Shown one piece after another: positions 23,601-62,955 of a stretch of DNA of 64,000 bases. Below the pieces are notes generated by a model, which was not told where the DNA came from, did not search any database, and worked only from the letters and a program-made list of their open reading frames with translations. Positions within the stretch are counted from its first letter, which is position 1. Each line of letters starts with the position of its first letter. This stretch comes from Setoptus koraiensis. Its lineage: Eukaryota; Animalia; Arthropoda. The position numbers and the translations under genes were made by a program. The DNA lies in NCBI GenBank assembly GCA_048013815.1, contig CM106586.1, positions 8,990,001 to 9,054,000 of the forward strand, written 5' to 3'.

Positions 23601-24117
23601 GTCCATCGAAGTTTCTTTCAGCCCCGACGGCTCATCAATGGTTTTCGCAGTTGGCTAAAGCTGCCCAGGCCCGGACAAAACTCACCATGAGCCAGCCATG
23701 AGGCAGCAGAAGAAGCATAAGAGTTGATTGGATCGAGGGATAGACGGCTGTTTCTTCGTTTGCCGCTCTGCTGCAGCTTTCATTGCTGGTGGCATTGTTT
23801 GTTGTCTAAATTGCTGCCGCTGATCTCATTTGGAACCGCCAATTCTATTATTATGCTAGCTATTGTACTCTCTTCCATGAGCTTACATCTAGTCCAGGCC
23901 ACACAGTCGCCTCTGTCGGTGGCAAGTTTGATCATTTTCACCCGCCAATCGGACAGGCGGCAACCGGAAGTTATCGCTTGCACAACTATTGCAGTTCTCA
24001 ATGACCAGTTACGTAAGCGCATTACGATCTGACAACTATCAACTGGCCTGAAATGGTGCCAAAGCGACGCCAATGTCTCGCCGGAGTGACCCGCGCACAC
24101 GGGCTGCCAGATAATAT

Positions 24118-32340: not shown

Positions 32341-33588
32341 GGCGAGCTCGGTATCAACAGTGTGCAGTCATGACTTGCAATTTACGACGATTGACTCGCC
32401 ATTGGAGGGCGCAGATGGGCCCGATGGGGGACAAGCCCGCGAACAATTGAAACATGCTTGCTTTTTTAGCTATAAACTTTCGCTTTTTCGAACAGATTTT
32501 CAGCTGCTGACAGCAACTGCCTGCTAACCGACAATTGTTGTGCCGATGAAGTAACCGGATATTGAGAATCGTCAGTAGGTAGGCCTTTTGAGCGGACAAA
32601 ATTGTGACAGGCGACAATTTGTGGGTTTTGGGGACGATTTTTATTCGTTGTAATTATCATCTGTTGTCTTGTAGGCAAAGATATGGCATGCAACTGTTCG
32701 ATTGGCGAAAGTGCGATTGCTGAACGCAAGTGCTAATGGTATCATCGCCGTCGATAACAATTGGCTGCTGTTTGTGTGCTTGTTGCACCATTACATATTG
32801 GCCAGGTATTGTTTCTGCTGGATTTGATTTCAATTTCTGTATGACGGATCAAGTTTAATTATTAAAATGGGCTTTCGGGAATTGCGTGCATTGTTACCAA
32901 ACGTTGAATTGAGCGGTGATGCGTTGGTCGGGTGTCTTTATACAGTGACATTCCAGTACATAGTGGCAGCATAAAAGACCAATCGACTTTTCTTTGCACG
33001 CTTCCTCCCTATCTTCAGATTTCATTTTAGCAATTTCCAGACACTTCGGTGGGATAGGGCAATCTGATAGGGCATAATGAAAGACACCGACCAAAAGCAG
33101 CGCTATTGAGACAACGATCATTAATAACCTCATTATTAACTTATGACCGGTTTATTACCAACATCAAGGCCTACGAATTGCGGTTTTTGTGTAGAATCTG
33201 GCGGACTTTAGTTTAGAGAGCACACTTTCGCAAGCATGCTTATGTCAGACATTCAATTTATATTTGATGGTTACAATTATTTTTTGGGCGCATGGCATTA
33301 CCATTTAAGACGATTTTTCGTTCATTAGCACTCTTAAAAGTTGCAGTCAACTTGTACCTGTTACACAAACATTAGAAATATATCACCTTTCCGTTTTTTC
33401 AACATCGCTGTCTTTCCATGCTTTCATTGAATGACTATCAAGTTTCGAGTCTCAAGTACAAGCTCCGAGCCTGTTCTGTTCGACCAATCCAGACTTCAAG
33501 ATTTTAGACAGCCAAATTGAACGTTTTTTGACGTTGGATCACGTTCGGCACGTTTGATATGAAACGGGCATGAACGCATCCCTAATTG
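32341..33588. repeat. Copy 2 of the ~1.2-kb dispersed direct duplication (partner 24118-25351)
   Basis: Same orientation, offset ~8.23 kb. Confidence 0.95.
32894..33133 (-). CDS. Putative secreted cysteine-rich small protein, copy 2 (possible second exon 32817-32742)
   Basis: As copy 1; differs in the ORF only by CGC>CAC (R57H). Confidence 0.6.
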   Translation of the reverse strand: MRLLMIVVSIALLLVGVFHYALSDCPIPPKCLEIAKMKSEDREEACKEKSIGLLCCHYVLECHCIKTPDQRITAQFNVW

Positions 33589-34544
33589 TGCGACATCCAA
33601 ATGAATTCGCCTGCCAATCGAGCGCACGATGACTGGACAAATTCGTTTCCCTGTATTCGATAAGGTCAGTCTCCGAAACTGAGTCTCGAATGCGAATCTT
33701 TGTTGCCTTCGGAGCATTTCGACAAGAACAAGAAATATTGGCGTGGATTCATACACACGCAATGAGACAAACTGGATTGAAACTTCGCCGGATCAAAATC
33801 TTACGGGTCGCTGTCTTGGCATGGAGAGGATATAAATAGGCACGAGCACGTATAAGGATAACGGTTATACGAACTATGGGCCGATGGAGCCCATGAAATG
33901 AACGGCGTTTTCAAATTCTCACTGGCAGCGATAACATTTGATTGATGCGAATGAGATTGCCCGTGCCACCATACACAATTGCGGCTCGATAAAGTTTTCC
34001 AGAAATTCGAGTTTGCAAACAGGCCTTATCTACTGGCAGTAATGGTGGCGCCTCTTATTTCGCTGCTCGCCATTGAGCAATTTCCAGTTGTCCAGTCGTT
34101 TGTCGGACTGTCGGATTGTTGCGCTACACTTGAATTGGTGGCCGCAACATGACAGTCTTGAGAAGGGGGGAAAGCAGCGGAAGTGTAATGCAGTTGACAC
34201 GCGATTGACTTTCGGCCGGAAGCTAGCTTTCGCTCTCTGCCGAGTGCCCGATAAAGCGTTGGCGGAATAAAAGAGAGTCGTCACCTTGTGTCCGCGTGTG
34301 ACTGCGGTGGCCCGATATTCGCCCGCTGATCGCCTCGGTCAATGGCGCCCGGCAAGCGGGATGGCACGCCGCAGTGAGCCGATGACCGATTGGCTGGCGG
34401 TTGCGGTCGACAGTGTTGCTTGTGGCGCCTGTCACTGTCACAATAACGATAATAATGATTATTATTTGTTACGTTGTGTGTGTGAAACTCGAGACTGTTG
34501 TCGCGACCGCGTTCGCGCCATTACCGCCCGGAGAGAGGACAATT

Positions 34545-43926: not shown

Positions 43927-45773
43927 GTGAGTAGTCCGTTTGGTCCGACCATTAGCGCCTGTTTCGTTCATTCGCACAATATGAATCGCATTTCGCCTGG
44001 CGGCTGTTTTCGGGCCGTCTTTGGGGCCGTTTTCGGGCCGTCTTTGGGGCCGTTGTCGGGCCGTTGTCGGGCTGTTTTGTGTGGCGACACAAATTGCGCT
44101 CGCGCCAATTGACACCTCTGGCGTGACATCAGCCGCCGGTGACCAGCCGCCGGTGAGCGGCGCACCAAATCAAAGTTGGCGCCCCCAATATTGCATTGAC
44201 ATTGTGAGTATTATTCTCATCATGTGACAGGCATATTGGAAGTATATTGGTGCCCGGTGTATTCAATTTGACAGCCCAGCTACCCGGCGAGACGGACGAA
44301 TTATTGCTGACACACAGTTGTTACAACAACCACTGGAAGGTGGGCGAGTTATCAGCGTCGGCAGCGCCCCCTGCCAGCGGCCAGCGTCTAATTACTTCCG
44401 GTCACTATCAAACGCAAGCTGTGTTTGCTTAGCCGAATTATCTGCTGACACAAGCGCCGTGACAGCATGCAAATATTCTTTCGACACAGAGTTGTGTGTC
44501 AGCCACTTAATTGGATAAACATGTCAACGGGCACCGAGGCCAAACACTGACAGGCCGCCGGCCCCAAAACCGTTGCGCGTGTGCGTGCACTAAATCAAAA
44601 AAGAATTGACATGTCGCACAATATGTATTACCTGCTGCTAACTTGATATCGACAAATAACGACTCTGTCAAATAACCGTTACAGTCTAACGGCGCTCGGG
44701 TGCGCCCGAAAGATGCCGAGCCGCTGGCAGAGAGTGAGAGGGGCGAGCCACTTGTTTATTAATAGTAGTAATAGGTAATTGGGTGCTTGCTGGCTGTTGT
44801 TGCGGCCCCCCCAACCAACCAACCAAACAGCTACAACCAAACTAGTCGAGTAAGCATGTCAGCGGCGGCCATGTCGGTAAGCGCTCGGGGGCTAATCGCT
44901 GTCGCATAGGTCCTCGGGCGGAAGTCGCCGGAAACGTGGGCGAAGGTCAGTCTGTTTGGCTGGCGCATCCCATGTCGATAGATTGGCCCAGAGTGGCCAG
45001 ATTATCGGCCAAGATATGGCAGCGCATTGGCGCGCCAATTCGCGAATTACGCGAGATACGCGCGTTTTACCGGCGCCCCTGTTTGCCTAGCGAATAGGAA
45101 TTTTTTATTGACTCGCGCCGTGTATCACCGGGCCAGCCGGTTCATACATTAGGCGATTAGCTGATACGTGGCGCTTGTATCACAAGCAGATATGCATACC
45201 CAACCGAACCGGCAGACTGGCCCCGATTTTTGAGGCGCTCGCATGCGATGGCATGCGAGCTGATGATGCGACAACCAGTGAACCGTAACATAGCGCCGCC
45301 CCGCACCGTCTAGCTAGACTGGCCCACGCTGAATGGTGGCGATTTTGGCGAAATGACCAGATTTGATGCGCTTCGATGGGTCGCGCTGTCTGGCGCGCTC
45401 GATCATGGTCGTCATCGATTATATTGAACTATTGAAAAAGATGAAAAAGTATGTTGATGGAGACCGACCCGCTAAGTGTGCCGAGCTTATTTCGTCGTTG
45501 GTCTAGCCAAGTGTTTGTGTGTGCTCGTGCCACCATCATTCAATTTATTTTCACGCGATGCGGCACAATTTTCCCCTATCGGCGCCCCACGTACCCCATT
45601 ACTGGCCGCATACCTGGCCCCAAAGCGTGGCGCCGCGAACAAATATTAGAATTAATTTCACAACGGCCGCTCACTAGCAACCAATTCATCTAGCCAGCAA
45701 CTATAACTCTACTCGGTGTGCTCTTTTCGTTGCCTCTTGATATTTTTTGCGTGCTGATCTATCATTTATCTAG

Positions 45774-48340: not shown

Positions 48341-50239
48341 TCAAGTTTCGAATTCGCTTTCTTTAAGGATTTTACTTCTAAGGTGGTTCTTATATTCAAT
48401 TATGTCCTTATTCCATTTCTTGATGGTGCCTTTTTCACAAATCCAAATTTCTTTGGCCACCTGACCAATCAGTCGGAAGTCGTGACTAACGAGCACTAGG
48501 CCACCTTCAAAGTCGTTGATAGCGTCTGCTAATGCATCAATAGTCTCCATATCTAAATGATTGGTAGGTTCATCCAATAGAAGCAAGTGCGGTACTTGTA
48601 AGGCCAGCCAAGCGAATACAACTCTACATCTTTGACCATCCGATAAATGACGCATTGGACATATTTGCTGTCTACCGGAAAGACCGTAGCGACCAATAAT
48701 TTTGCGCATCTCCTCTCTTTCTTTCATATCTGGAAAGCATTTCATCATATACTCTAGAGCACTCAGAGATAGATCCAATGCTTCATGGAGATGTTGGTGA
48801 TATCTGGCTATTCTAAGATGTGAGTGCTTCCTGATTAAACCATCTTGGGGCACTACCTCGCCACATAATAGCTTAAGGAAGGTTGACTTTCCACAACCGT
48901 TTGGTCCGACCAGTGCAATTCTGCTGTCTAAGTCAATACCAAGCTCTAAATTCTTGTATATCCATGGGGTCTTTTCATTATACCTAAAGGATATATTTTG
49001 TATCATAACTACAGGAGGTGGTAGTTTCCCGCAAGCAGGAAAGTAAAATTCAACTAATTTATCTCCTACAACTTTATCGGTCAATCCCGCTGCCACCATT
49101 TTTCCAAGAGTCTTTTCTTTACTCTGAGCTTGCCTAGCTAATTTGGCACTTCCGTGACCAAAGCGGGCAATATAGTCTTTCATATGAGCTATCTGAGCTT
49201 GTTCCCAATTGTAACGTTTCATTTGATGTTCTAATAGTTCGAGTCTGGTCTTGACAAAGGCATCGTAATTACCTGTATAATATTCTAGACGGTTTTTGGT
49301 GATGTGCATGATGTTGGTACATACACCATTAAGAAAATCTTGAGAGTGCGATATGATCACAAGTATTCTTTTATAGTTCTTCAGCTCTTGCTCTAACCAG
49401 ACACAAGCCTCTAAATCTAAGTGATTGGTAGGTTCATCTAGTATCAACATGTGAGGTTTCAGATATAAAGCTCTTGCTAAGGCTATTCTCATTCTCCATC
49501 CTCCACTGAAGTCTTTACACTTTTTAGCTTGCATTTGTTTGTCGAAACCCAAACCATATAAGATATAGGCTGCCTTGGCTTTGGCCCTATCGGCACCCAT
49601 GTCATCAAGACGCTCATAAATGTCCATAAGTTGATCTTGAGATTCTTCGTCTTCACGATCTGCCAATTGTTCAGCGAGTTTCTCTAATTTGATACGTTCC
49701 TGTTCGACATCTAGCACTGCCTCTAGGGCACTCTTATCAAGCGGAGGTATCTCGCGTGTTAAATGATAGATATCAATTTGTTCTTGTATTGGTATCTCGC
49801 GTCTACCTATTGTGCACAATAGCGTTGATTTACCGCATCCATTCAAGCCAATAAGACCATAACGTCGGCCATAGTTGAGCTCCAATCTTGTGTCTGTTAG
49901 AATTTCAAAACCATGAAAGGTAATGGATAGATTGTCTACTTTAACATCACGAGATTGAGGATGAACACCAAGAACGCCGGTACACGATCTTGCTTGAGCG
50001 GCTATCTCTAGATCCTTCTCAAGCATGGCGGTCAGTTTATCCACACAATCGCCATTTGGTGCCGATGTGTTGTTAACGATCGAATCTAGTGTTTCTTGAG
50101 TAGTGCCGTTTTGCTGGCTTTCCGCTGACTTGTCTGAATTTTCTGCATTGCTGGTCTTGTTTGTTCCATTTTGTTGTTGACGAGATTTGGCCTGTTCCTT
50201 CTTCTTGGCGTCTCTTTTCTTTTTCGAATCCGAAGGCAT
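48341..50239 (-). CDS. ABCF2: ATP-binding cassette subfamily F member 2 (intronless, 632 aa)
   Basis: Two NBDs ([23 protein letters not shown] and [23 protein letters not shown]), no TM segments, and the ABCF2-typical [21 protein letters not shown] linker. Confidence 0.96.
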
Positions 50240-51167
50240 GACTGTAACAATAATAGTAATTAATTAATTGTAATACAAAATTGTAATATTCTAGCTCTAC
50301 TCTAATATTAATAATAATCCTTGTGTCTGTATGTAGCAATTCCTTAAACGTTGATATGTACTTATGATTGTATCACACGATTGTATGCTAATGTATCAGT
50401 GGAGTATCTGCCGATATTGTTGCTTAAGATTTGATTCGATCAAATTGAGCCAAACAAATAATATATTCATATATGAGTATATATATTTATAATAAAACAA
50501 TGTCTAGCGGCATGCGATGTTGTCTATATTGATTGAGAATCTCTCTGTATGTGAACCATTGCGTTGTGAGTGAATGGATAGATAGCCCATGAGAACACAT
50601 TGAAATGCGGTGCTGAATTGAACGACAACGACAATCAATCGGCACTGCTACACATTGTACCATCAAACGCACAGATAACGCACGCGGTCGCTCAAATAGG
50701 CGCGGTACAAGGTAGGGGGGTGTGTACTGTGCGATCAACTTTACCGACTACCGTTCGCAAGGTATAGCTAGGTGAATAGTCGCGTGTGAATACTATGCAT
50801 GGTGATACTTCTCATGATAGTATATTTTTAAAAATTACATTACACAATCTAGCTATAACTTGTTATGTACAGAAGGATAATCTAGATACACACACATTTC
50901 GAACAACACACTATAGTAATGACACATTGTTAACATATACATTTTATCACATTATACATAGTATTGATACACTGTTTGTTGCATTGTGTTACATTAGCAG
51001 CGATGGCAGTAGCAGAATTGGCGTAAAATTATCGTTATTTAGTCCCGGTTATGTCATTCTGTGTCATCTCGCAACTTCTCCACACCACACTTCCATCTTT
51101 ACTTTTACATACACTTGTAAATAGCCACTCATGATTATATACGTTAGAGGTCACCACGTAGTAGTGC

Positions 51168-51434
51168 ATGTTTCATCACGTAGACGAGATGATTAAAAGT
51201 ACCAGTGGCCAATCACAGCCAAACCAAAAGAACAACAATAATAATAATGATAGCAATAAAGACAATCAAGTGAAGGACGACAATGCAGACGGATCTCAAA
51301 GGTTATACACAATGCCTGATTATTTGCACACTGTCGATGATTTTAATAGGGACGCTGCAAAACAGAAGACGAGGCTTCTTCGCCTAATTAAAGCTGTTAC
51401 ATTTGACGATGATAAAGAAACAGACAATAAATAA
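51168..51434 (+). CDS. Small hypothetical protein (88 aa)
   Basis: ATG-initiated ORF with protein-like composition in the gene-dense block; no family recognised. Confidence 0.35.
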   Translation: MFHHVDEMIKSTSGQSQPNQKNNNNNNDSNKDNQVKDDNADGSQRLYTMPDYLHTVDDFNRDAAKQKTRLLRLIKAVTFDDDKETDNK

Positions 51435-52128
51435 TCAGAAACAATGTACTGTATAATGAGGAATCACTTGCAAATCTTAATCTTGGTTGATTTTTTTACA
51501 AAAGAATAACCAATTCAGATCAGTTTTCACGCTAGATATGCATTGGCTTTCACTATTTGTATCACGAGCTTTACATCATCCGGATGTGAGTACAGTTTCA
51601 AGACGATCTATAGTTTATACTACTGTCACGACGGTGTAGCTTAACAGTCTCGGCTTGATTAGAAATGATTAGGTTTTTTTTTGTTTTTGTTTTATTTTTG
51701 AAATTCGCGCTCCATAACTCGGAGGAGTCATCTGTGTGGGATCATACTCTACCGTAGAATAATACTGAACGATCCAGCAAGACTGTCCCGTCCAATGTGT
51801 AAAATGAGCACACAAAAAGGTAGTCAGCACAGAATGTGAAACAAAGACGAATGTGCTGTTTGTGCTGGCTCTTCGAAGTTCTCTGAGTGTGCGATCAGTT
51901 TATTCAGAATTTTCAGTAAAAAACGTGCATGGTTACGATCTGTGCCGGCATGGCGGACAACATTACTACTCCATTATTCCTATATCGTTGTCTACTCAAA
52001 GCTGATCACTTCAACTTGACATCATCATAATCAATGTTACACAACGGACTACAACATCCTAAGACCAACATTTCATATTATTACGTCTATACTTGATTCA
52101 TTCGAAATAGCGATCGTGAATAACAAAG

Positions 52129-52728
52129 ATGGAGACTCTATTAGGTGTCACTTTCGACGATTTTGTCATCATGGCTGCGGATCGTGGCGAAATTTTTAGT
52201 ATTATGAAATTACAAGAAGACAGCAGCAAGATGTATTTGCTTGGAAGCCATTTGGTCATGTCAATCTCAGGTGAACCTGGTGACACAACACAATTTGCTG
52301 AATACGTTCAGAGAAATCTTGAGTTAGAGAAATTCAGAGACGGATTTGAAGTTACACCAGATCGTGCTTTCCATTGGACAAGGAATCAGCTGGCGACGAG
52401 TATCAGGTCACGCTCACCGTACAATGTATTTCCACTCATTGCAGGATATGATGTGAGGCAGAATAAGACTAAATTGTACTTTCTAGATTACTTGGGCACC
52501 GGGGTGGAGGTGCCATATATCGCCCATGGTTATGGTGAATCTTTTGCAACTGGCCTGCTTGATCGACACCACAGGCCAAATCTTAGCGAAACTCAAGCGA
52601 TCGAATTGGTTCATGATGCTCTGAACGCTATCAAAAAGCGTCTCATAGTTGAACAAAAATTTTTTGAGTTGATCATAATCGATAAGAATGGTGTTAGAAA
52701 ATTACCAGACTATCCAAATACAAGCTAG
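52129..52728 (+). CDS. PSMB2: Proteasome subunit beta type-2 (beta4), intronless
   Basis: METLLG start; GEPGDTTQFAEYVQRN, RSRSPYNV..IAGYD, LYFLDYLG and HGYG are family motifs; 199 aa. Confidence 0.92.
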   Translation: METLLGVTFDDFVIMAADRGEIFSIMKLQEDSSKMYLLGSHLVMSISGEPGDTTQFAEYVQRNLELEKFRDGFEVTPDRAFHWTRNQLATSIRSRSPYNVFPLIAGYDVRQNKTKLYFLDYLGTGVEVPYIAHGYGESFATGLLDRHHRPNLSETQAIELVHDALNAIKKRLIVEQKFFELIIIDKNGVRKLPDYPNTS

Positions 52729-52923
52729 TTATCAATATGTTTTCAGGGTAAAATAAAAGTGTGTTTATAATCATCTTATACGAAGTAGTGTCTCGTTTTA
52801 ATTCACCAAAATAAGTGCGATTGTATGATGTCTTTCAGTGAGAATGGACTTAAATGGGATCCTCTAACTGGCATCTATCGGGTTGCCGGCTACGATGGCA
52901 TGCAAGATACGGCAAAAAGTTTG

Positions 52924-52996
52924 TGGAGATGCCGAGGATCGAACTCGGGACCTTATACATGCAAAGCATACGCTCTACCAACTGAGCCACATCCCC
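52924..52996 (-). tRNA. tRNA-Ala (anticodon TGC)
   Basis: GGGGATGTGGCTCAGTTGGTAGAGCGTATGCTTTGCATGTATAAGGTCCCGAGTTCGATCCTCGGCATCTCCA folds as a cloverleaf with G3:U70, A and B boxes, and a T5 Pol III terminator just downstream (52918-52914). Confidence 0.97.
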
Positions 52997-53248
52997 TCGA
53001 TATCTACCTAAGAGTATGGTCAATTTATATAAATTCAGACATTCAAGATTAAAATCATATTTTTACTAGATTTTACTCTGCGTTAATATCTACACTTATC
53101 ATCTCAGCAACAGGTGTAAGGAATCACTTTTCCTTGCGATGTATATATTATTAGCGTAATATGGACAATCACTTGGCTTTCTGACACAACTCGTTGCGAG
53201 ATAGATTCCTGTCCCTATATTGTAGCTGTTTTCAAAAATAGATTTGAA

Positions 53249-54580
53249 ATGGACAGAGCTGGGATAATTAGTTTGTTATATAGAAGATTGGCCAGTGGAC
53301 GATTGAATAATCTAGTCTTTAGCTGTGATGGTGCTACCAAGAATTTCTTACACACAAATTTGGTTCGAAGATACTACTCAGATCACGGTGACTTTCCAAA
53401 TCTCAGGTCCCAATGGACACAGAAACTTGATTTTATCGAACCGGCAAGTTTGCCCAAAATACCCACCTATAGAGTGATTGATGAAGACGGTCATGTGATT
53501 GATGAGAGCCAACGATCAGCAGAGCTTACGAAAGAGAAGCTCATGAAGATTTATACAGGTATGGTGCAACTTGAAACAATGGACAAGATAATGTATGATA
53601 GTCAGAGACAAGGGAGGATAACTTTTTACATGACTAGCAATGGCGAAGAAGGGTTACAGTTTGGTTCAGCGGCTGCATTAGATGATCAAGATTTAGTTTT
53701 TGGTCAGTATAGAGAATCCGGAGTTCTAATATATCGGAATATGAGTTTACGATCAATGATGGCTCAATGTTATGGAAATCATGAAGATCTTGGTAAAGGG
53801 CGACAAATGCCGATTCATTACGGTAACAGAAAATTAAATTACGTGACAATATCCTCTCCTCTTGCGACTCAAATGCCTCAAGCAGTTGGCGCGGCTTATG
53901 CAATAAGATCATCAGCTGAACCAAGAGTAGTGATATGCTATTTTGGTGAAGGTGCTGCAAGTGAAGGTGATGCTCATGCTGCGATGAATTTTTCATCTAC
54001 CTTAGATTGTCCTGTTATATTCTTTTGTCGAAATAATGGTTATGCGATTTCAACACCAGCTAATGAACAATATAGAAGTGACGGGATAGCATCTAGAGGA
54101 ATTGGCTATGGCATCAGCACTATCAGAGTAGATGGTAATGATTTTTTAGCGGTGTACAATGCTACAAAAGCTGCTCGTAAGATTTGTCTTGAAAAATGTA
54201 AACCAGTTTTGATCGAGGCAATGACATATAGGATAGGCCATCATTCAACCTCAGATGATTCTAGTGCATACAGAAATACTGATGAGGTCAAGCACTGGAA
54301 CGAGCACGATCATCCGATCGCTCGCATGCGAAAGTTCCTTATGAATGAAGGCATTTTGAAAGACGAGGACGAAAAGAAACTGAGAGCTGACTCTCGAGTT
54401 GCAGTTTTAGAGGCATTCAACTATGCAGAAAAACTGAAAAAACCATCAATCAAGGAAATGTTCCTCGATGTCTACGATCAACCTACTAAAGATCTTTTGG
54501 AGCAATATGAAGATTTGAAAAGACATTTTGGTGCTCATGGTCATAACTATTCGATAGAAAAATTCGAGAATGAAGCATAA
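53249..54580 (+). CDS. BCKDHA: Branched-chain 2-oxoacid dehydrogenase E1 alpha, mitochondrial (intronless)
   Basis: YDSQRQGRITFYMT, GKGRQMPIHYG, TISSPLATQMPQAVGAAY, TPP motif GEGAASEGD...NNGYAISTP, and YRIGHHSTSDDSSAYR. Confidence 0.97.
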   Translation: MDRAGIISLLYRRLASGRLNNLVFSCDGATKNFLHTNLVRRYYSDHGDFPNLRSQWTQKLDFIEPASLPKIPTYRVIDEDGHVIDESQRSAELTKEKLMKIYTGMVQLETMDKIMYDSQRQGRITFYMTSNGEEGLQFGSAAALDDQDLVFGQYRESGVLIYRNMSLRSMMAQCYGNHEDLGKGRQMPIHYGNRKLNYVTISSPLATQMPQAVGAAYAIRSSAEPRVVICYFGEGAASEGDAHAAMNFSSTLDCPVIFFCRNNGYAISTPANEQYRSDGIASRGIGYGISTIRVDGNDFLAVYNATKAARKICLEKCKPVLIEAMTYRIGHHSTSDDSSAYRNTDEVKHWNEHDHPIARMRKFLMNEGILKDEDEKKLRADSRVAVLEAFNYAEKLKKPSIKEMFLDVYDQPTKDLLEQYEDLKRHFGAHGHNYSIEKFENEA

Positions 54581-54655
54581 TACAGAGGACAATATAATGG
54601 ATTTACTGTTCTTTATTCATTCTATTGAGTAAGTTTATTTCCTACTTTTAACCAT

Positions 54656-55927
54656 TTAGGCATTTGACTGCACGTGCCCGACGCCCGGAAATTCGGAAAA
54701 TGAATAATGAAGTGGATAGTCAATAATATTATGGAGTGTGTTGGTTCTAACTTGTGTGATATAATTTTTGTATCTTTGGCGGATAAAAGCTTTATCTTTG
54801 TCTGTTTCAATCTCCTTCTTTTTGGCCACAACTTCAGGTAGATTTTTATAAATTTTAGAGGTCTGTCTTTTCATTTGACTGTAGGAAATTCTGGCCGCGG
54901 AGGCGTTAATTTGGCGAACTTGGTTGCGGTTTATGTTTGTGTTTGATTTAGAGTAATTATAATACGAGTTTGGATTTTCACTAGGATGGGATTTGTCTTT
55001 TCGATATGTATTTCGGTGGAATTCCGACGAGCGATGACACTTACAGTGACATTCCTCGTTGTTTTGTTCTTCATTTTGTTCTTCATACTGTTCTGTATTT
55101 CGTTCTATATGTTGTGCATCGAGTAGTTTTTGATATTGCTTATTTTTCTCGAATTCCTTTCTCCTTTCTACTTCCATCAATTTACGCCGTTCAGATCTTT
55201 GTTTTATGGCTTCCACACGTTGACTGGACCTTTCAATAATACCCGGACAGTTCATTGTGAATATTTCGTGCAAAGGTTGTGGTAATGGTTTAAGATGCTC
55301 ATATCTTCTGTAGATTTCTTCCTCAGAGTACGATGGCCTTTCAGTAGTTGTCGTTATTTGTTTAGTTACAGGTTTGTACATAGGTCTGTGTGTCTGTCTG
55401 TACATAGATTTGGGTGTAGGTTTGGATGTTGGTTTGTGTGCATGATTCGATATATGAGTGGATGTAGGATTTAGAGTAGGATTTTGTGTAGGATTTTGTG
55501 TAGGATCTGATGTAGGACTTGATGTAGGTTTGGGGGTAGGTTTGTGTATAGGCTTGTGCATGGGCTTCTGTATGGGCTGCTGTATGGGTCTGAGTATGGG
55601 TTTCTGTATGGGCTTGTGTATAGGTTTGTGTATAGGTTCAATAAGTACATAGTTCGTTTTCTCATAATTACTCGATTTGCTCACTCTGCTCAGCAGACTA
55701 TCTTCGCTAGTTTGGCTACCTTTGCTACTACTTAACAAACTATTGCGACTGGTTCTACCCTGTGTCTTACTTTCTTTACTTTGGATAAGTGAATCGAGAA
55801 GGGAATGCAAATTGGGTATCCTAACATCCAGCAGATGGTGCGATCTGGCATAATATCCTTGTTGTTTGAGCCTAAGTTTTTCCAGGTCGTTGCGCAATTG
55901 TCGCAACTCGCGCAAATTGTTGGACAT
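54656..55927 (-). CDS. ALMS-motif protein (ALMS1/CEP295/C10orf90-like C-terminal motif), 423 aa
   Basis: PLHEIFTMNCPGIIERSSQRVEAIKQR and ISYSQMKRQTSKIYKNLPEVVAKKKE resemble the two halves of the ALMS motif (LQEAL...PDFISRSQER; EM..RSKRIYD.LPEV) as recalled. Confidence 0.7.
   Translation of the reverse strand: MSNNLRELRQLRNDLEKLRLKQQGYYARSHHLLDVRIPNLHSLLDSLIQSKESKTQGRTSRNSLLSSSKGSQTSEDSLLSRVSKSSNYEKTNYVLIEPIHKPIHKPIQKPILRPIQQPIQKPMHKPIHKPTPKPTSSPTSDPTQNPTQNPTLNPTSTHISNHAHKPTSKPTPKSMYRQTHRPMYKPVTKQITTTTERPSYSEEEIYRRYEHLKPLPQPLHEIFTMNCPGIIERSSQRVEAIKQRSERRKLMEVERRKEFEKNKQYQKLLDAQHIERNTEQYEEQNEEQNNEECHCKCHRSSEFHRNTYRKDKSHPSENPNSYYNYSKSNTNINRNQVRQINASAARISYSQMKRQTSKIYKNLPEVVAKKKEIETDKDKAFIRQRYKNYITQVRTNTLHNIIDYPLHYSFSEFPGVGHVQSNA
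55463..55638. repeat. Coding 12-bp minisatellite (xKPI / xPTQ tetrapeptides) inside the ALMS-motif gene
   Basis: TGTAGGATTTTG and TGTATGGGCTTC-type units with 12-bp period. Confidence 0.85.
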
Positions 55928-56100
55928 GACGCAATATTATTAAATTAAAGTTAAAATTTCAGGGAATGGGGGGCATGTGATAAGTTGATAATAATAAATA
56001 ATAAAATACGATTTTTAGCGCCATAGATGACATGATTACTATTTTTGTAAGCAGCTGAGAATAGACTGTGTTTGATGTACGCACAGCCCATCCACTGGAC

Positions 56101-56396
56101 TAGTGCTGCGGGCAGGATTCCCGCTCAACCGGGTATGCCCAAATCATCTATCTGCCCAAAATAGACGTTAGGGTATGCCTAGCGTCTTGGAAGATTCTTG
56201 ATTCAGCGGGTATGCCATTCACCCTAATCTTCCGATAGCGTAATTTCGATACTTCTGGCCTTGCCATTGTTCACTGATTGTAGATTCAGAATATAAAAAT
56301 CTATTTTAGGTGAACATTTGGCCGCCTGCATGCCCAACGGCTCAGAACGAAATCTGGGTAGGGGCGGACTCTACCCATGGCTCTGCCAGCACCACT
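56101..56396. mobile_element. Possible degenerate hAT-MITE relic related to the 60403-62094 element
   Basis: TAGTGCTGCGGGCAGG at 56101 matches that element's right TIR at 15/16 nt. Internal GGGTATGCC x3 and GCCCAA motifs; weak right end CTGCCAGCAC; no clean TSD. Confidence 0.4.
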
Positions 56397-56936
56397 AATA
56401 CCTACACACTAATGCACTGGTGCAGACTGTGTGGAAGCGCACGTCATGCGATGAGCGCTTCAGTTGTGTGCGCTTGTGCGCGCTTTGTGCGATTTGTACC
56501 AGTGCATACCTGGCCTTGTGCGCCTTATGCGTTCACAGCCACACTAGTTTCACTACAACGACTTTTTCCGTATTGAAAAGCGCACACACTACTACCGTTT
56601 AGTATGCTGTGCGCGACGAAATTGTAGGGGGCGCTTCAACGGCGGTGAAAAAGCGTAGAATAAATAGTGGAGGTGCCATGTTTTGCTGCCACCACCCAAT
56701 ACATTGTACTCTTCCCAGCTGCTGCGAAAATTCTCTCTCAATTAATTCAATATACATGTATATATAATATGCAATCCATACACTTGACTGTGGCGCTAAA
56801 AATTGTCTCCAATTTACTCATTTATTTATTTGATTACTAATTTATTTACAACAAGTAAATGTCAGCCTGAAATATTAAAAATTTATTCTACTCATTTGAC
56901 CTATAACACATAGCCGCAGCGGCCCACAATACCAAA

Positions 56937-58802
56937 ATGGAAGTGGAAGACGGTGGAGGAGACCACATGATGCAGGCCAGCCCCAAAGTTACCCTCATTG
57001 ACAAGGGTTCACAATGGAGACACTTCAAACGTGGACCAAGAGTAGACAAATGTAATCATTATATGGCCACTTGCAATTATTGTGGACAGGTTTACAGGAG
57101 AGGCAAAGTAGAAATGTTGCGCCGACATCTCGCAAATAATTGCGTCAAGGTCCCAATGCCTGTGCGACAAGAGTTTAAGGCACAGTTATTGGAGGTTTTA
57201 AACAATCCGGGCAAGCAAGTTAAACGAGAAATAGTCATGGTCGAATCCGATGTGGCTACCATGGGCAACAGCACCCCCCTGAATGTTAGAGGTGGCAAAA
57301 CAAAAGTGGTCAAAAGAGAACCAAAAGACCTTTGGAACAATAATAAACAATCAACCACGATAGCCTTGCAAAATGCCGGCCCAGTTAGATATGCGGCACC
57401 ATTCCAGTTGAATAGTAATGATTTTAGGGATCACATAGTGCGTTACTGTTTTTCTGAGTTGGTAGATCTAGAATCAGTTTGCTCGCCATCATTCAGAAAT
57501 ATTGCTCATTTGTTACTTAAAGCCGCACACATATCTACCAACCCTAAACAGTTAGCTTCATTACAGTATGATCTCTCAAATCTCGATCAAAATCTTCAAC
57601 ATTTATACGAACAAGAGAAGAACGTTGTCATGGATGGTATCAAGTATTGCATTGATCGTAATGTTGGTGGTGCCATAGTGTCTGACTTCCGTGACAACCT
57701 ATGTGTTATGTCAGTGACTTATATAGACAAAGACTGGAAAACAAGAGAGAAAGTATTAAGAGCTGCACAGGTGGATAGTGCCGGCCAATTTATTCTGGAT
57801 ACTCTTATCGAATATGGACTGATGCAGGACACAAACATTTTAAACAAATTTGCCTATGTATCAAATTCTGATGGATTTCCGTCTGGAGTGGAGGTACACC
57901 TAGCGTCCATTGCAAACATAATAGATCATTGTGTCGAGGTTGCTGTATTCGCAGATGGACAATTCGATCAATTAATTGATAATTGTCGCCACATTTGTAA
58001 AGAGCTCAAACTATTACCAATGCCCACATACGCTCCATGGATTTATAATTTTGAACTTATTGAAACTGTTTTAAATAGTACCGACAAATTCGTACCAGCT
58101 AACTTTTCTCTGGATACCATGATAGAAACAATGACGATGATTTATGAATTGTTGAAACCCTTCAAAGAAACCTCCACCTCTTTAAGAGAGAGTGTAACCA
58201 AAAGACCCACCATCAACCAAGTTGTTTTAGAGTGCATAAGATTGAAAAAATTCATTGCAATTAAAGATGAATCAGCAACTAGCAATTTCCCTAAGAAGGC
58301 TGCCGTGAAAGAAGCTCTCCTAAATGAGTTCACAAATAATGTTAACCTACAAACTACTCATAAGATAGGCGTGTTTTTGTGGCCAAACTTTAGACATCTC
58401 AAGATGTTCGACGATGCTGAAAGACAAGAGATCTACAACGAAGTTCGTCGACATATAGACAGCATGCAACACTCCAACTTGTCAGGCTTAAATGCCGATG
58501 GGAGTTCTACAATGAGGTCTCAAGACTCAATATATGCGGAGTGGGAATCGACTGATGAAATTGAACAAGATGAAGTTAGTCGATATATTACAGACCAGTG
58601 TAATAATTGTGGTATTGATAATTTGATTGAGTGGTGGAGAGAGGCTTCCTGTAGGTATCCGAAATTGAGTCAACTGGCAAAATCCATATTATCTATACCG
58701 GCAAGTGTGACATCTATAGATAAGCGGGTCAAACTCAAAGCTGATATCAAAACAAACGAAAGGATGTTGTTCCTTCATTGCAATCTAGGAAGCGTTGGTT
58801 AG
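56937..58802 (+). CDS. BED zinc-finger, hAT-transposase-derived protein (ZBED-like, probably domesticated), 621 aa
   Basis: BED finger (WRHF...ATCNYC...LRRHLANNC) and C-terminal hAT dimerisation domain (LIEWWRE...YPKLSQLAKSILSIPAS). Intact, intronless, no flanking TIR pair seen. Confidence 0.85.
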   Translation: MEVEDGGGDHMMQASPKVTLIDKGSQWRHFKRGPRVDKCNHYMATCNYCGQVYRRGKVEMLRRHLANNCVKVPMPVRQEFKAQLLEVLNNPGKQVKREIVMVESDVATMGNSTPLNVRGGKTKVVKREPKDLWNNNKQSTTIALQNAGPVRYAAPFQLNSNDFRDHIVRYCFSELVDLESVCSPSFRNIAHLLLKAAHISTNPKQLASLQYDLSNLDQNLQHLYEQEKNVVMDGIKYCIDRNVGGAIVSDFRDNLCVMSVTYIDKDWKTREKVLRAAQVDSAGQFILDTLIEYGLMQDTNILNKFAYVSNSDGFPSGVEVHLASIANIIDHCVEVAVFADGQFDQLIDNCRHICKELKLLPMPTYAPWIYNFELIETVLNSTDKFVPANFSLDTMIETMTMIYELLKPFKETSTSLRESVTKRPTINQVVLECIRLKKFIAIKDESATSNFPKKAAVKEALLNEFTNNVNLQTTHKIGVFLWPNFRHLKMFDDAERQEIYNEVRRHIDSMQHSNLSGLNADGSSTMRSQDSIYAEWESTDEIEQDEVSRYITDQCNNCGIDNLIEWWREASCRYPKLSQLAKSILSIPASVTSIDKRVKLKADIKTNERMLFLHCNLGSVG

Positions 58803-58978
58803 ACAAGCTAAACACGTCTGATATATGCACGAAACTTCAGACCCTTGCGTTTAAAAGATCATATTGTAAATAAAAGAAAATATGTATTCAACCTTTCTTC
58901 TCTCATATGCCAATATCTTAACTGTCGATAATACAATTGTATTATGAAGATTTTATTCGAGATCTTTTGATTGGTGTT

Positions 58979-59697
58979 TCATAAGTTTTCGAATAGAGCG
59001 TCTGCATAACTGATCATTCCTTGATAGTCCTCGCAATGTTTATACAAAGATTCAGGGATTTTCTCTATGCCTAAATAGGCTCCGCTAAGGGAGCAAGCCA
59101 TTGAAGCAATTGTGTCGGTGTCACCTCCACAAGAAATGGCCCAATGCAAAGTGCGAACAAATTCATTTGATAACTCATAAGCATCTCTTGTCTTAGACGC
59201 ACCTCGAAGGAAGGAATATACAGCCAACGGAACGGAGTTTTGTGCCGACACATCGTTTCCCAAAACTCTCACTATGTCTCTGCAAGTAATGTCTTTTCCA
59301 GAAACGTGCATTTTCTCAATTATCTGTTTAATTTGTTTGAGTTTCTTTGTGTATATTTGATCGGGTTCTTTAACTTCTATATGGTGCATGCACTCTATTA
59401 GATAGTCCAGAAAGGCGTCTTCATTCATTATATGACCCTTTAGTTTAAGAGCTTTTCTAATGGCGAATACCATTAATAACGCTCCATTGATACCATATCT
59501 ATGCGAATGAGTTATTCTAGAGCATTTTTCTACCAAGTCCTTGGCTTGCTCATCGGAAAGATTCATTCTATCGGAGTATAATGCCAAGCCGGCACTTCTC
59601 ATTGCAGCACCATTGCCATAGCTGCCACTTCCGTTGAATTGCTTCTTTGCTGGTCCAAATGGATCCGCGTAGTTTGTTTCCTTGAGCGCTGCGAAAA
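58979..59697 (-). CDS. ADPRHL2: ADP-ribosylhydrolase ARH3, exon 2
   Basis: QFNGSGSYGNGAAMR, NSVPLAVYSF, and GGDTDTIASMACSLSGA. Acceptor CATTAG at 59698. Confidence 0.92.
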
Positions 59698-59821
59698 CTA
59701 ATGAATTTATTTCAAAGAGTGTTTATACAAAGATTGATTAGAAAGGCTTAATAACGAAATTTGATCATAGCGTGTTGACGATCATGCATAATATCTAATT
59801 GATGATAGTCTAATTACTCAC

Positions 59822-60167
59822 TAACGTGAACACTGGCTCCGTAGCCTCTATGGGGATCATGAAAGAAAGACTCAGCGTACTCTCTAGCCATGTCATTGGC
59901 ATTGAAGCCCTTATTGGCCAGAATAGACTTGCATGTTGACCTAGTCATGGCGGTATCGTCTGTATAACGCAAGGTTTTCTCGGATAGAGATTTCTGGCCA
60001 GAATTCGAAGAAGGCGTTTGGGGCTTACTTTCGGCATGAGGCTCCGTTAGACCCTTGATATGCTCAACTAAAATGTGCGGATTGACTCTGCTGCTACCCT
60101 CAAATCTGGCCCCGACTGCATCCCCCACAAGTACGCCGATGAGTGTCCCACGGTAAGCGGATTTCAT
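59822..60167 (-). CDS. ADPRHL2: ADP-ribosylhydrolase ARH3, exon 1
   Basis: RGTLIGVLVGDAVGARFE, YTDDTAMT and PHRGYG. Donor A|GTGAGT at 59821; the 124-bp phase-1 intron restores the frame (HVIFAALK); 354 aa total. Confidence 0.92.
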
Positions 60168-60367: not shown

Positions 60368-61954
60368 CTAAATGAACAGTACAGCTGATAATGCATGTGA
60401 TGTAGTGCTGGGGGCAACTATGGGCGGTGGGGCATGCCCGTGTGCGGCACAGGGGCAGTGGGCAGCCGCCCAACGGGCAGGGATTTTGCGGGCAGCTTTT
60501 GGGCGAGATGGGCAGCAGGCGGGCAGCGGGCAGCATAGGATTATGGTCATATCAAATATGAATACGAGATACCAGCGAATCGGCCAGAGGCTCGTTATTA
60601 TGCCCAAAGGAAATTTGATATATCCGATGTTCAGTCTTTTGCTCAACAAGTGTATGATCTTTTTCATAAGTCCGATGATGCTGAGATCAAACGGGCTAGC
60701 GAGCTTGGATATATAAGAATGATGTCTCCCATGACTTGTGGATGGGATTATAAAGATATAAAAAAGGAGTATAAGAACTTTCCTCGGTATAAGGAACACT
60801 TGGACTATGTCAAATTTACTCCCGTTGTATTGCCGGTTGTCATGCCTACCCATATCATATATGTGGCTTTTGTAAATAGAGCAATCGATACCGATGTCAC
60901 CCATGGTTTTGTTCTTGTGGACGACAATTTCAAATATGAGAATTACTATACTTTTGTGGATATTACCGCGATAATGATGCAGATAAGCCGGATTTTTTCC
61001 TTCGCAGTCTCTCTTGACCCGATGATGTTTATGTGCACCCGGATGGTCCATAATAACGGAACAAACAGAATTCCAACTGCTAGAGAACATCGTGACTGTA
61101 TTATACAGTGGCTCACTTTGTTGCCTCACCCTCCGTTCGAAGTATATTCTGAGCATTCTTACAGAACAGACTTTATGAAGATTTTGGTTGAAGACTGCAA
61201 TGCCCATCCTTACTATACCGCTAGGGATAGGGTTAGCGCAATGGCCATTAGTCAGCCAACCAGTAAGGTCCCTACTCTCCTCTATTTGGGCACAAGAAGA
61301 CATGCCGTTATGACTGCTCGAGCTGAGGTTGCTCGCCTCAATGGTCTTCAAACTAAGGTCTATAACCGTGTGTTTACGCCATTTGCGATAATTCCTCATA
61401 TAATGCACCGGACAGTAGATAGGGCGCAGGAATTTAGATCTATGATGCCTGATGACATATCTAACAGCTTGGAAAACTGTACTGACGTCGATCATGCTTT
61501 GCAGCTCTTGAGCCACTCCGCTGATATTATTTATTCTCATGTGGAAAATAGGCCTGTGCCATATCGTCAAGTAAGCAGACCAGTAATGCCTCTGACAACC
61601 ACCGAGGTGGCCCAGACGGTCGTTGATTTTCCAGTGCATCAATCCGATGAGAAATTGGCCGAGCTTAAAAAGAGAGCTGACGAATTGTATCTTCTTGGTA
61701 AGAATCAGCAGGCTGCTGAAGTCGAGAAGGAGTTTATCCGACTTTATCGAGATTGTTATAATCAGGATGCAACATCCATTGGTGCAAGATATGGTCAAGC
61801 AGTGTTGCCAGGGTCCATTGATGATAGACATAGGCAAACGACTGGTGCCATTGTTAATGCTTCCGCCATTATACCTGCTTTGGATTCGGAAGTGGTCGAT
61901 TTGGCTGACTCTGAGAATGATAGTTCTCCAGCCTTGGAGGAATCTGCCATGGAC
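60368..61954 (-). other. In-register antisense open frame covering the whole cargo (528 codons)
   Basis: The ORF track gives 60368-61837. I extended it to 61954 because no TTA/CTA/TCA codon occurs in the + frame until 61955. Codon boundaries coincide with the + ORF. Confidence 0.8.
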
Positions 61955-62094
61955 TTACCCAACCAACCAACCCAACCAATCCATCTCGCCCAAAAGCTGC
62001 CCGCAAAATCCCTGCCCGTTGGGCGGCTGCCCACTGCCCCTGTGCCGCACACGGGCAGTCGCTGCCCATGCAGCTGCCCCTGCCCCCAGCACTA
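60403..62094. mobile_element. Non-autonomous hAT-superfamily DNA transposon (1692 bp) carrying captured coding sequence
   Basis: Identical terminal 14 bp TAGTGCTGGGGGCA, then a perfect 77-bp inverted repeat (60435-60511 vs 61981-62057). Perfect 8-bp TSD ATGTGATG at 60395-60402 and 62095-62102. An 8-bp TSD is diagnostic of hAT (or P). Confidence 0.95.
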
Positions 62095-62095
62095 A
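60539..62095 (+). CDS. Transposon cargo ORF of unknown family (frame open 60539-62095; first ATG 60719); probably a captured gene fragment
   Basis: 518 open codons with globular-protein-like composition. No transposase or RdRp motif recognised. Runs into the right TIR; the stop TAA straddles the TIR/TSD junction. Confidence 0.65.
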   Translation, partial: DYGHIKYEYEIPANRPEARYYAQRKFDISDVQSFAQQVYDLFHKSDDAEIKRASELGYIRMMSPMTCGWDYKDIKKEYKNFPRYKEHLDYVKFTPVVLPVVMPTHIIYVAFVNRAIDTDVTHGFVLVDDNFKYENYYTFVDITAIMMQISRIFSFAVSLDPMMFMCTRMVHNNGTNRIPTAREHRDCIIQWLTLLPHPPFEVYSEHSYRTDFMKILVEDCNAHPYYTARDRVSAMAISQPTSKVPTLLYLGTRRHAVMTARAEVARLNGLQTKVYNRVFTPFAIIPHIMHRTVDRAQEFRSMMPDDISNSLENCTDVDHALQLLSHSADIIYSHVENRPVPYRQVSRPVMPLTTTEVAQTVVDFPVHQSDEKLAELKKRADELYLLGKNQQAAEVEKEFIRLYRDCYNQDATSIGARYGQAVLPGSIDDRHRQTTGAIVNASAIIPALDSEVVDLADSENDSSPALEESAMDLPNQPTQPIHLAQKLPAKSLPVGRLPTAPVPHTGSRCPCSCPCPQH

Positions 62096-62660
62096 TGTGA
62101 TGTACTGTGTGCGTTTTGCGGGTTCCCTACGTTTCATCGACAGATTTACTTCACCGACACTATCGTTCACCGAGAGTATGCTTCACCGACACCATTCAAT
62201 TCACTTACAGCTTGTCTCACCTACAACTCACTCTCTCTAACACCCATCAACTACTAGTCTCCTCGACAAATCTCTTGTCAGTGATGTTAAGTGATAGCCG
62301 AGGATGCACAGTTTCTCAGCTATCACACTCACAATTAATATCCTTGTAATCATGCGTTAAATTAGTCTAGTCTGCGACGAAAGGGGTTACATAGTGGTAT
62401 AGCTGAGATCTCTTGTATTCGCAGCTACCACACTTACATGAATTTATCGATTGCGAGCGTTAACAGGTTGTCATAAACTCCTTTGAATCCTTCAACGATA
62501 CTTGTCCACAAAAAAAAAAAAATAAGCGCTCGAAATACTGATTTGATCAGTATTACTTGATTTCAACAAATTGACCAACTCTTTCTAGGCGGGACGCAAA
62601 TAATCAACTCACAAAATTAAGCGCTCTTGACACTGATAAGATCAGTATCACTTGTTTTAA

Positions 62661-62955
62661 TTAAGGTCGTACTTCCAACCCTTCGCAACGGCTGCTTGAG
62701 GCACAACTTGACAAGGTAGTCTGCGTACTAGAATTTTCGTCCATCTTCTCTTGCACTTCCTGCACAACTTCAGGAGTTCTCACAGCTCTCCCCCTACGAT
62801 TAGAAACTTCCTCCAATTCAACTGATCCAGTTCGTTCGAATCTTTCTATCAAATCTGTTATCGTTTTGTGGTGAGGTTTTTTCAAATTTTTGTACTCTGT
62901 TGACCATTTTCGTTGAGTTCCTATTATGCAACTCGAGCTTTGATAGGTTCGAACT
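62661..62955 (-). pseudogene. Tc1/mariner-type N-terminal HTH (DUF4817-like) relic
   Basis: YQSSSCIIGTQRKWSTEYKNLKKPHHKTITDLIERFERTGSV...RRGRAVRTPEVVQEVQEKMDEN fits the P..TI..L..KF..TGSV....GR...RTPE pattern. Preceded by in-frame stops; no DDD/E domain follows. Confidence 0.65.

What the first reader, a model, noticed from the sequence alone, without database searches (positions are those of the whole stretch)
60395..62102. Young Pack-type hAT element carrying a foreign gene fragment instead of a transposase
A perfect 8-bp TSD, a perfect 77-bp inverted repeat and intact reading frames indicate a recent insertion. The internal ~1.42 kb (60539-61955) is coding from edge to edge with no natural start or stop, as expected of a captured fragment. 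Gene capture by TIR elements is well known in plants (Pack-MULEs) but little described for animal hATs. If the cargo is RNA-virus derived, this would be a DNA transposon mobilising an endogenous viral element, which normally associate with retrotransposons.
Basis: partly seen in the sequence, partly recalled or inferred. Interest (0 to 1): 0.85.

Follow-up and report, generated by a model that had tools for sequence, protein, structure and literature searches.

The report
Two-way virus-like gene inside a transposon
A small jumping-DNA element in a eukaryotic (likely mite) genome, seen both inserted and absent at its site, carries a single-copy 1.4-kb gene piece with no database relative found that is free of stop codons on both strands, a design best known from narnaviruses, so it is likely a captured piece of an unknown RNA virus that the element could carry to new sites.

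Summary
The structure is real. Element 60403-62094 has an 8-bp target duplication, 14-bp TAGTG-type ends, GGGCA-rich subterminal arms (the '77-bp repeat' lies there) and no transposase. Public sequencing runs show that the ends belong to a small family (about 4-8 copies), that the 1441-bp cargo (60540-61980) is single-copy with no near-identical host donor, and that an empty site with one target copy exists in one run. So this is a young, polymorphic, non-autonomous hAT-like element with foreign cargo. The main new fact is that the cargo is ambigrammatic: 472 codons open on both strands in register, with 0 TTA/CTA/TCA where about 15 are expected (P about 5e-9; GC3 0.41; ENC 49). No homologue was found in any protein, virus, structure or family search, although about 84%-identical relatives occur in one run. 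Best reading: a truncated accessory segment of a narna-like RNA virus, patched into the element by break repair. The viral origin is inferred from the codon signature only, and it is not shown that the element moved with its cargo. Pack-TIRs in animals, hATs included, are already described.

The parts
60395..60402 (.). Left target-site duplication ATGTGATG
   Evidence: the empty allele has one copy (joint 60394 to 62095 in run X3)
60403..60416 (+). Left 14-bp terminal inverted repeat, begins TAGTG (hAT-type end)
   Evidence: (I8)
60403..60539 (+). Left arm, 137 bp, 69% GC, 10 GGGCA/TGCCC motifs (about 35 times the window density); likely transposase-binding subterminal repeats; multi-copy
   Evidence: depth
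60435..60511 (+). Left copy of the perfect 77-nt subterminal inverted repeat
   Evidence: contig depth 806 against about 103-125 for single-copy contigs in X2
60540..61980 (.). Single-copy foreign cargo, 1441 bp, 43% GC
   Evidence: one contig 60510-62010 with 0 differences in X1 and X2, depth 81.8 and 102.6; family copies diverge after 60539
60539..62095 (+). Forward open frame, 518 codons stop to stop (473 searched); protein-like composition, pI 5.8; likely the 3' part of the donor gene, cut at both ends; orphan
   Evidence: no true homologue
60368..61954 (-). In-register reverse open frame, 528 codons, first ATG at 61831 (430 codons inside the cargo); skewed composition, pI 10; reads on through the left arm
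   Evidence: no homologue
61958..61980 (+). (CCAA)n-like tract at the right junction: filler DNA or donor sequence, undecided
   Evidence: best match in the window is a microsatellite at 44810-44828
61981..62094 (-). Right arm, 114 bp: 77-nt inverted repeat (61981-62057), 8 GGGCA/TGCCC motifs, 14-bp terminal repeat (62081-62094); multi-copy
62095..62102 (.). Right target-site duplication ATGTGATG
58979..60167 (-). Neighbouring host ADP-ribosylglycohydrolase gene; the element sits 228 bp upstream of its likely start codon
   Evidence: Pfam PF03747; distance

Best explanation
This is a young, polymorphic, non-autonomous hAT-like element whose interior is a single-copy, both-strands-open gene fragment, likely a truncated accessory (non-polymerase) segment of an unknown ambigrammatic narna-like RNA virus that was likely patched in by DNA break repair. 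Shown: ends, TSD, small family, single-copy cargo, no near-identical host donor, empty allele, specific avoidance of TTA/CTA/TCA. Inferred step 1: the codon avoidance was selected in an RNA replicon whose two strands both need open frames, as in Culex narnavirus 1. Inferred step 2: viral RNA was copied to DNA by a host reverse transcriptase. Inferred step 3: that DNA served as filler when a break inside a family member was repaired, replacing the middle of the element and leaving blunt junctions and a (CCAA)n tract. Inferred step 4: with both ends intact, the element would move if a cognate hAT transposase is supplied in trans. Whether capture came before or after arrival at this site is open (about 45 to 55). 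The cargo has no start of its own at the edge and likely makes no viral protein; any effect would more likely be through read-through RNA or small RNAs.
For: Ambigram P about 5e-9, expected 15-16 codons, seen 0; other A-ending codons are used freely, GC3 0.41. ENC 48.6 matches the mean of 49 given for true ambigrammatic viruses and not the 27 of GC3-driven pseudo-ambigrams; only about 114 of 221,000 virus sequences are ambigrammatic (PMC13262655, passages). Same codon avoidance and basic reverse product (pI 9.8) in alphanarnaviruses (PMC7010960); here the reverse pI is 10.0. Known second segments are ambigrammatic orphans, unrecognisable even between related viruses (PMC8155312; PMC10460169), which fits the blank searches. 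No frameshift or stop in either frame. Cargo is one unbranched contig at single-copy depth in 2 of 2 deep runs. Empty allele in 1 of 5 covering runs (X3). Diverged relatives in X3 only: 57 of 68 identical at depth 57.8, chance expectation 3e-6 or less, the one listed change synonymous in the + frame, as expected of further integrations from related strains.
Against: No homologue ties the cargo to any virus. No RdRp family hit. No narnavirus GGGG/CCCC segment ends are kept in the cargo. It is longer (at least 473 codons) than known Robin-type proteins (272-304 codons), and its forward product is acidic, whereas mosquito S2 products are reported basic. The language-model search points weakly to giant-DNA-virus hypothetical proteins (0.90) and Ulp1-like proteases (0.87). 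Unchecked scan notes report ambigrams in phage genes and an IS element, so the signature may not be specific to RNA viruses. The relatives in X3 are in a DNA library and could belong to a co-sampled DNA virus or symbiont. One copy at one site gives no proof of transposition with cargo. No integrated CxNV1 form was supported in mosquito cells (PMC8316113). No autonomous partner was found (no genome held).
Confidence: 0.5

Rival explanations
1. Same element, but the donor is a DNA entity (Polinton-like or giant virus, densovirus-like element, or symbiont prophage), and the forward protein may contain a degenerate clan CE (Ulp1/adenain-like) cysteine protease (H122, D141, C187).
For: ESM Atlas leads to Nucleocytoviricota hypothetical proteins (0.83 whole; 0.90 for residues 45-250) and C48-bearing clusters (0.82, 0.87). 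The H-D-C spacing resembles clan CE by eye (pattern recalled). Relatives occur in a DNA library. Scan notes, unchecked, report ambigrams in DNA elements. No reverse transcription is needed.
Against: A profile from 12 bacterial C48 domains does not score the protein (not reported, below 473 of 1000 reported shuffles); hhalign probability 0.3%. No Pfam C48 hit. The oxyanion Gln and the His-Trp and Cys-Gly pairs, invariant in alignment A1 (HW and CG), are absent. Atlas scores of 0.9 occur for 4-10% of shuffled proteins. No IMG/VR, phage or metagenome relative.
Confidence: 0.22
2. The donor is another kind of RNA replicon or RNA virus (mito-like, viroid-like circular RNA, or an unclassified segmented virus), captured the same way.
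For: Ambigrammatic mito-like viruses exist (PMC9252102). Length and pI differ from Robin-type segments.
Against: Most described ambigrammatic viruses of arthropods in the papers read are narnaviruses. The table listing all 114 could not be read.
Confidence: 0.15
3. The cargo is host-derived or element-borne: a fast-evolving orphan gene, or an accessory gene of a larger transposon, with overlapping sense and antisense frames; the parent was lost or is too diverged.
For: Single-copy animal Pack-TIRs usually carry host DNA (PMC8277862). Diverged relatives exist in one run. Host genes nearby are intron-poor, so the lack of introns tells nothing.
Against: An intact recent capture should leave a near-identical parent; X2 is flat across the cargo at 80% likeness and X1 at 85%. 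All 10 long host frames tested use TTA/CTA/TCA, longest avoiding run 196 codons in low-complexity sequence.
Confidence: 0.11
4. Assembly artefact or chance open frames.
For: No single listed contig spans the whole element; no expression data.
Against: Left flank contig runs 30 nt into the arm, cargo contig overlaps both arms, right junction contigs exist; 6 of 12 listed runs hold the cargo; ambigram P about 5e-9.
Confidence: 0.02

Closest known systems
Animal Pack-TIRs, e.g. Pack-hAT-N8_XT of Xenopus tropicalis and Ssk-FB4 (Tan et al. 2021, PMC8277862; passages and outline read)
   Same: Non-autonomous TIR element with TSD holding a non-transposon filler; young; single-copy like 98.6% of theirs.
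   Different: Theirs copy host DNA with an identifiable parent, often nearby. Here no parent is seen in the host runs, and the filler is an intact ambigrammatic orphan frame.
Second ('Robin'/S2) segments of ambigrammatic narnaviruses: CxNV1, ZJMV3, AejapNV1 (PMC8155312, PMC8316113, PMC10460169; passages read)
   Same: In-register forward and reverse frames, avoidance of TTA/CTA/TCA, no database homologue, basic reverse product.
   Different: Here it is nuclear DNA, longer (1.44 kb or more against 0.8-1 kb), acidic forward product, no segment ends, no RdRp partner found, no sequence similarity tested directly against those segments.
Non-retroviral endogenous viral elements of arthropods (Aedes: bioRxiv 2020.04.02.022509; Tetranychus: PMC11512250; passages read)
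   Same: Polymorphic, single-copy, ORF-bearing virus-like insert; one Aedes insert was flanked by a MITE.
   Different: These are tied mainly to LTR retrotransposons and are recognised by homology. Here the insert lies between the two ends of one TSD-flanked DNA transposon and is recognised only by its codon signature.
Non-autonomous hAT elements of the Ds type (recalled, not looked up)
   Same: 8-bp TSD, short TIR, subterminal motif arrays, internal replacement by filler DNA.
   Different: Filler here is foreign coding DNA; cognate transposase not found.

Membership tests
hAT superfamily (non-autonomous) | 8-bp target-site duplication | tested here: met
   (empty allele holds one copy)
hAT superfamily (non-autonomous) | Short TIR starting (T/C)A(A/G)NG (consensus recalled) | tested here: met
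   14-bp TAGTG... repeat
hAT superfamily (non-autonomous) | Subterminal repeated motifs at both ends | tested here: met
   GGGCA/TGCCC 70-73 per kb against 2 per kb in the window
hAT superfamily (non-autonomous) | Dispersed family with other flanks | tested here: met
   arm depth about 4-8 times single copy; at least 3 other flanks among loose ends; TSD pairs of other copies could not be matched
hAT superfamily (non-autonomous) | Autonomous partner with the same ends and a DDE transposase | not testable with these tools
   no genome held; the nearby hAT-like gene lacks the catalytic Glu and a right end
Pack-TIR | Non-transposon sequence between the ends, not shared by all members | tested here: met
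   single-copy cargo, multi-copy arms
Pack-TIR | Identifiable parental copy in the host genome | tested here: not met
   flat single-copy depth, no second contig in X1/X2; none in the window; contigs can drop records, so not final
Pack-TIR | Transposition with cargo (several sites with distinct TSDs) | tested here: not met
   one copy seen; a cut-and-paste move could also leave one copy
Ambigrammatic narnavirus segment | In-register reverse ORF from specific avoidance of TTA/CTA/TCA, not GC3 bias | tested here: met
Ambigrammatic narnavirus segment | RdRp or sequence homology to narnavirus proteins | tested here: not met
   second segments are known to lack homologues, so this does not exclude S2
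Ambigrammatic narnavirus segment | Complementary G-run/C-run ends with 3' stem-loop | tested here: inconclusive
   not present at cargo edges; both ends look truncated
Ambigrammatic narnavirus segment | Replicating RNA that co-occurs with an RdRp segment and draws siRNAs | not testable with these tools
   no RNA holder listed
Clan CE (C48/Ulp1-like) protease | Profile match with His-Asp-Cys triad and oxyanion Gln | tested here: not met
   only language-model leads
Clan CE (C48/Ulp1-like) protease | Fold | tested here: inconclusive
   single-sequence models pLDDT 37-38; fold searches uninformative

The most novel reading that the evidence does not exclude
This is a nuclear fossil of the accessory segment of an unknown ambigrammatic RNA virus, picked up and then moved by a cut-and-paste hAT transposon in an arthropod germline: a DNA-transposon route for endogenising and spreading RNA-virus 'dark matter', with further integrations from related strains still segregating in the same population.
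Probability: 0.2. Interest if true: 0.88.

Novelty: new variant of a known kind. Interest (0 to 1): 0.68.

Why it matters
If the donor is a narna-like virus, a germline copy would show that such viruses infect the animal itself, not a fungus or protist riding on it. It would give a rare accessory-segment sequence, larger than the known ones. It would also give a natural test of why these viruses keep both strands open: a copy released from replication should gain reverse-frame stops, while circulating relatives should not. The both-strands-open signature could be used to find integrated viral sequence that homology searches miss. A TIR element with two intact ends around viral DNA would be a second route, beside LTR retrotransposons, for placing antiviral small-RNA templates in new genomic sites. 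Even if the donor is a DNA virus, a 472-codon selected ambigram in eukaryotic nuclear DNA is unexplained.

Tried and rejected
No genome was held, so the family census and partner search rest on run contigs. Homology searches found nothing true. Forward frame: Pfam, NCBIfam, PHROGs (55, best E 0.03), PDB sequences, the 5.8-billion set at near and shorter lengths (9, 97; longer lengths not searched there), 1.84 billion representatives, IMG/VR (15), metagenomes, phages. Reverse frame: 6, 36, 55, 56, 99. The 2 hits were a TPR-repeat and a kinase-repeat protein with summed weak scores and were rejected. Both AlphaFold models failed, so the fold searches were discarded. The clan CE idea failed profile tests (80, 86; controls 87, 88); 12 of 18 fetched C48 matches were used, leaving out 4 short ones, 1 near-duplicate and 1 with a stop. 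No RNA holder was listed, which says nothing on expression. Run X9 (another organism) gave no cover, no proof of absence. 6 of 12 listed runs were laid. No unusual RNA folding in the first 961 nt of the cargo (z 0.48); no Rfam match. An arm 24-mer was not found in metagenome contigs. The idea that the (CCAA)n tract was templated from the nearby flank is not supported: a distant microsatellite matches better. The hAT-like gene at 56907-58799 was rejected as partner. A 10-bp TSD and a CACTA-superfamily reading were rejected: the element starts TAGTG, and the TA is part of its ends. Empty-allele frequency could not be read, because most of that contig is flank shared by both alleles. The supplement listing 114 ambigrammatic viruses could not be read and may name closer analogues.

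Full report
1. What is in the sequence. The element spans 60403-62094, between two copies of ATGTGATG. Its ends are a perfect 14-bp inverted repeat starting TAGTG. Both arms are 69% GC and hold 8-10 GGGCA/TGCCC motifs, about 35 times the window density. An 8-bp duplication, a short TAGTG end and motif-rich subterminal arms are the marks of hAT elements (recalled). The host is a eukaryote with long, intron-poor genes (proteasome subunit, ABC-F, E1 dehydrogenase, RhoGEF). 'Mite' is my impression and was not tested. The element sits 228 bp upstream of an ADP-ribosylglycohydrolase gene.

2. The cargo is ambigrammatic. The + frame (518 codons) and the in-register - frame (528 codons) are both open; the other four frames hold 19-51 stops. 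Over 472 codons there is no TTA, CTA or TCA among 30 Leu and 29 Ser codons, while ATA, AGA, CCA, GTA, ACA and GCA are common. About 15-16 were expected; P is 5.6e-9 from the ORF's own third-base use and 3.4e-9 from 4818 host codons. GC3 is 0.41 and ENC 48.6, so this is not the GC3-driven pseudo-ambigram of PMC13262655 (passages), which gives ENC 49 for true and 27 for pseudo-ambigrams and counts about 114 of 221,000 virus sequences as ambigrammatic. The + frame has ordinary protein composition (pI 5.8); the - frame is skewed and basic (pI 10.0), like narnavirus reverse products (9.82 +/- 0.98; PMC7010960, passages). The - frame's first ATG is at 61831, and the only reverse stop lies just outside it at 61955-61957. 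This fits the 3' part of a two-way segment (inference).

3. Copy number and age. No genome was held. 6 of 12 listed runs hold the cargo, none on record as RNA; I laid 6 runs. In the two deep runs the cargo is one unbranched contig, 60510-62010, with no differences, at depth 81.8 and 102.6. Neighbouring unique contigs are at 89-101 and 108-125. The arms are far deeper: 806 for the 77-mer, 336 plus 195 for the left inner arm and 552 for the right arm in X2, so roughly 4-8 copies; depth is a rough guide only. Other copies continue differently after 60539 and rejoin at 61981, which fixes the cargo at 60540-61980. So the cargo is not a constant family part, and no near-identical host parent is seen. 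X1 may be the source of the window and is not independent.

4. Empty site and relatives. Run X3 has a joint 60394 to 62095 with one copy of the duplication, beside the cargo and the filled right junction; 4 other covering runs list no such joint. X3's contigs end at GATC sites and one loose end reads GATCGATC, so it is likely a proximity-ligation library from pooled animals. The joint itself has no GATC. Its frequency cannot be read. A precise deletion between the repeats would give the same sequence and is not excluded. X3 alone (1 of 3 covering runs at 80% likeness) also holds diverged cargo relatives: 57 of 68 letters at 60728-60795, depth 57.8, chance expectation at most 3e-6, with the one listed change synonymous in the + frame; extra depth to 60963; and a colinear two-part match near 61785/61880 at depth 21.4. 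These could be more integrations or a co-sampled DNA source. Two differences in the shallow run X4 (one synonymous, one not) are under depth 5 and may be errors.

5. What the cargo encodes. Nothing was found in any library; the two hits are repeat-protein artefacts. It is not a transposase or an RdRp by these tests. The ESM Atlas gave leads only: giant-virus hypothetical proteins (0.83; 0.90 for residues 45-250) and C48 protease clusters (0.82, 0.87). A His122/Asp141/Cys187 pattern looks CE-like by eye, but a profile of 12 bacterial C48 domains scored it below shuffles and hhalign gave 0.3%. Models were unusable.

6. Mechanism. Shown: a polymorphic non-autonomous element with a foreign, intact, two-way cargo. 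Inferred: the signature arose in an RNA replicon. In Culex narnavirus 1 an open reverse frame is needed for the RdRp segment to persist (PMC8316113, passages), and second segments are ambigrammatic orphans (PMC8155312; PMC10460169). Inferred: a cDNA of such a segment filled a break inside a family member, as in the gap-filling model for single-copy animal Pack-TIRs (PMC8277862, passages). That model usually acts in place, after insertion. Against simple transfer of it, this element is young enough to be polymorphic, which leaves little time for two events at one site. A cargo-less allele at this site cannot be told from contigs. Both ends are intact, so movement in trans is predicted. The nearby hAT-like gene (56907-58799) has Asp where Hermes has its catalytic Glu (role of that residue recalled), no matching right end and lies in a unique contig, so it is probably domesticated.

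7. Against my reading. There is no homology, RNA or polymerase partner. The cargo is longer and more acidic than known second segments. The relatives come from a DNA library. I put narna-like at 0.5, DNA donor 0.22, other RNA replicon 0.15, host or element origin 0.11, artefact 0.02.

8. Novelty. Animal Pack-TIRs are known, hATs included, and an Aedes viral insert flanked by a MITE is reported (bioRxiv 2020.04.02.022509, passages). In the listings of ten paper searches (titles and abstract starts, open-access library only) I saw no report of an integrated ambigrammatic segment, or of a TSD-flanked DNA transposon enclosing RNA-virus sequence. Other papers seen as passages: bioRxiv 2022.08.17.504163, PMC11512250, bioRxiv 761890 (62), PMC9252102, bioRxiv 2025.03.14.643323 (71). 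The supplement listing all ambigrammatic viruses was unreadable. Verdict: a new variant of a known kind, interest 0.68.

Noticed in passing
window 56907-58799 (+): Intronless 631-codon hAT-derived gene (zf-BED plus hAT dimerisation domain) with degenerate catalytic motifs, single-copy; probably a domesticated ZBED-like gene.
   Followed up: partly
window 56101-56400: A 13-of-14 match to the element's terminal repeat at 56101, followed by GGGTATGCC-type repeats, about 800 bp upstream of the hAT-derived gene; no matching TSD found; possible old relic of a related element.
   Followed up: partly
window 62290-62660: Very high-copy repeat (summed depth up to 77,000 against about 100), with a poly-A run and a 46-nt duplicated hairpin-like unit; type not determined.
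   Followed up: no
window 62661-62954 (-): 97-codon frame with a DUF4817 helix-turn-helix domain (E 5e-9), like the N-terminus of a mariner-type transposase (family link recalled); probably a fragment.
   Followed up: partly
window 24116-25352 and 32339-33589: Two direct copies of a 1.25-kb sequence, 94% identical, 8.2 kb apart, with no long frame between them; dispersed repeat or decayed LTR pair.
   Followed up: partly
runs X1, X2, X4, joint 60459 to 62075: A contig joins the two arms over only 21 other letters, suggesting a very short family member; another contig holds both arms close together on opposite strands.
   Followed up: no
window 48344-59722: Run of conserved genes (ABC-F, proteasome beta subunit, E1 dehydrogenase alpha) each in one long frame, pointing to an unusually intron-poor genome.
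   Followed up: no
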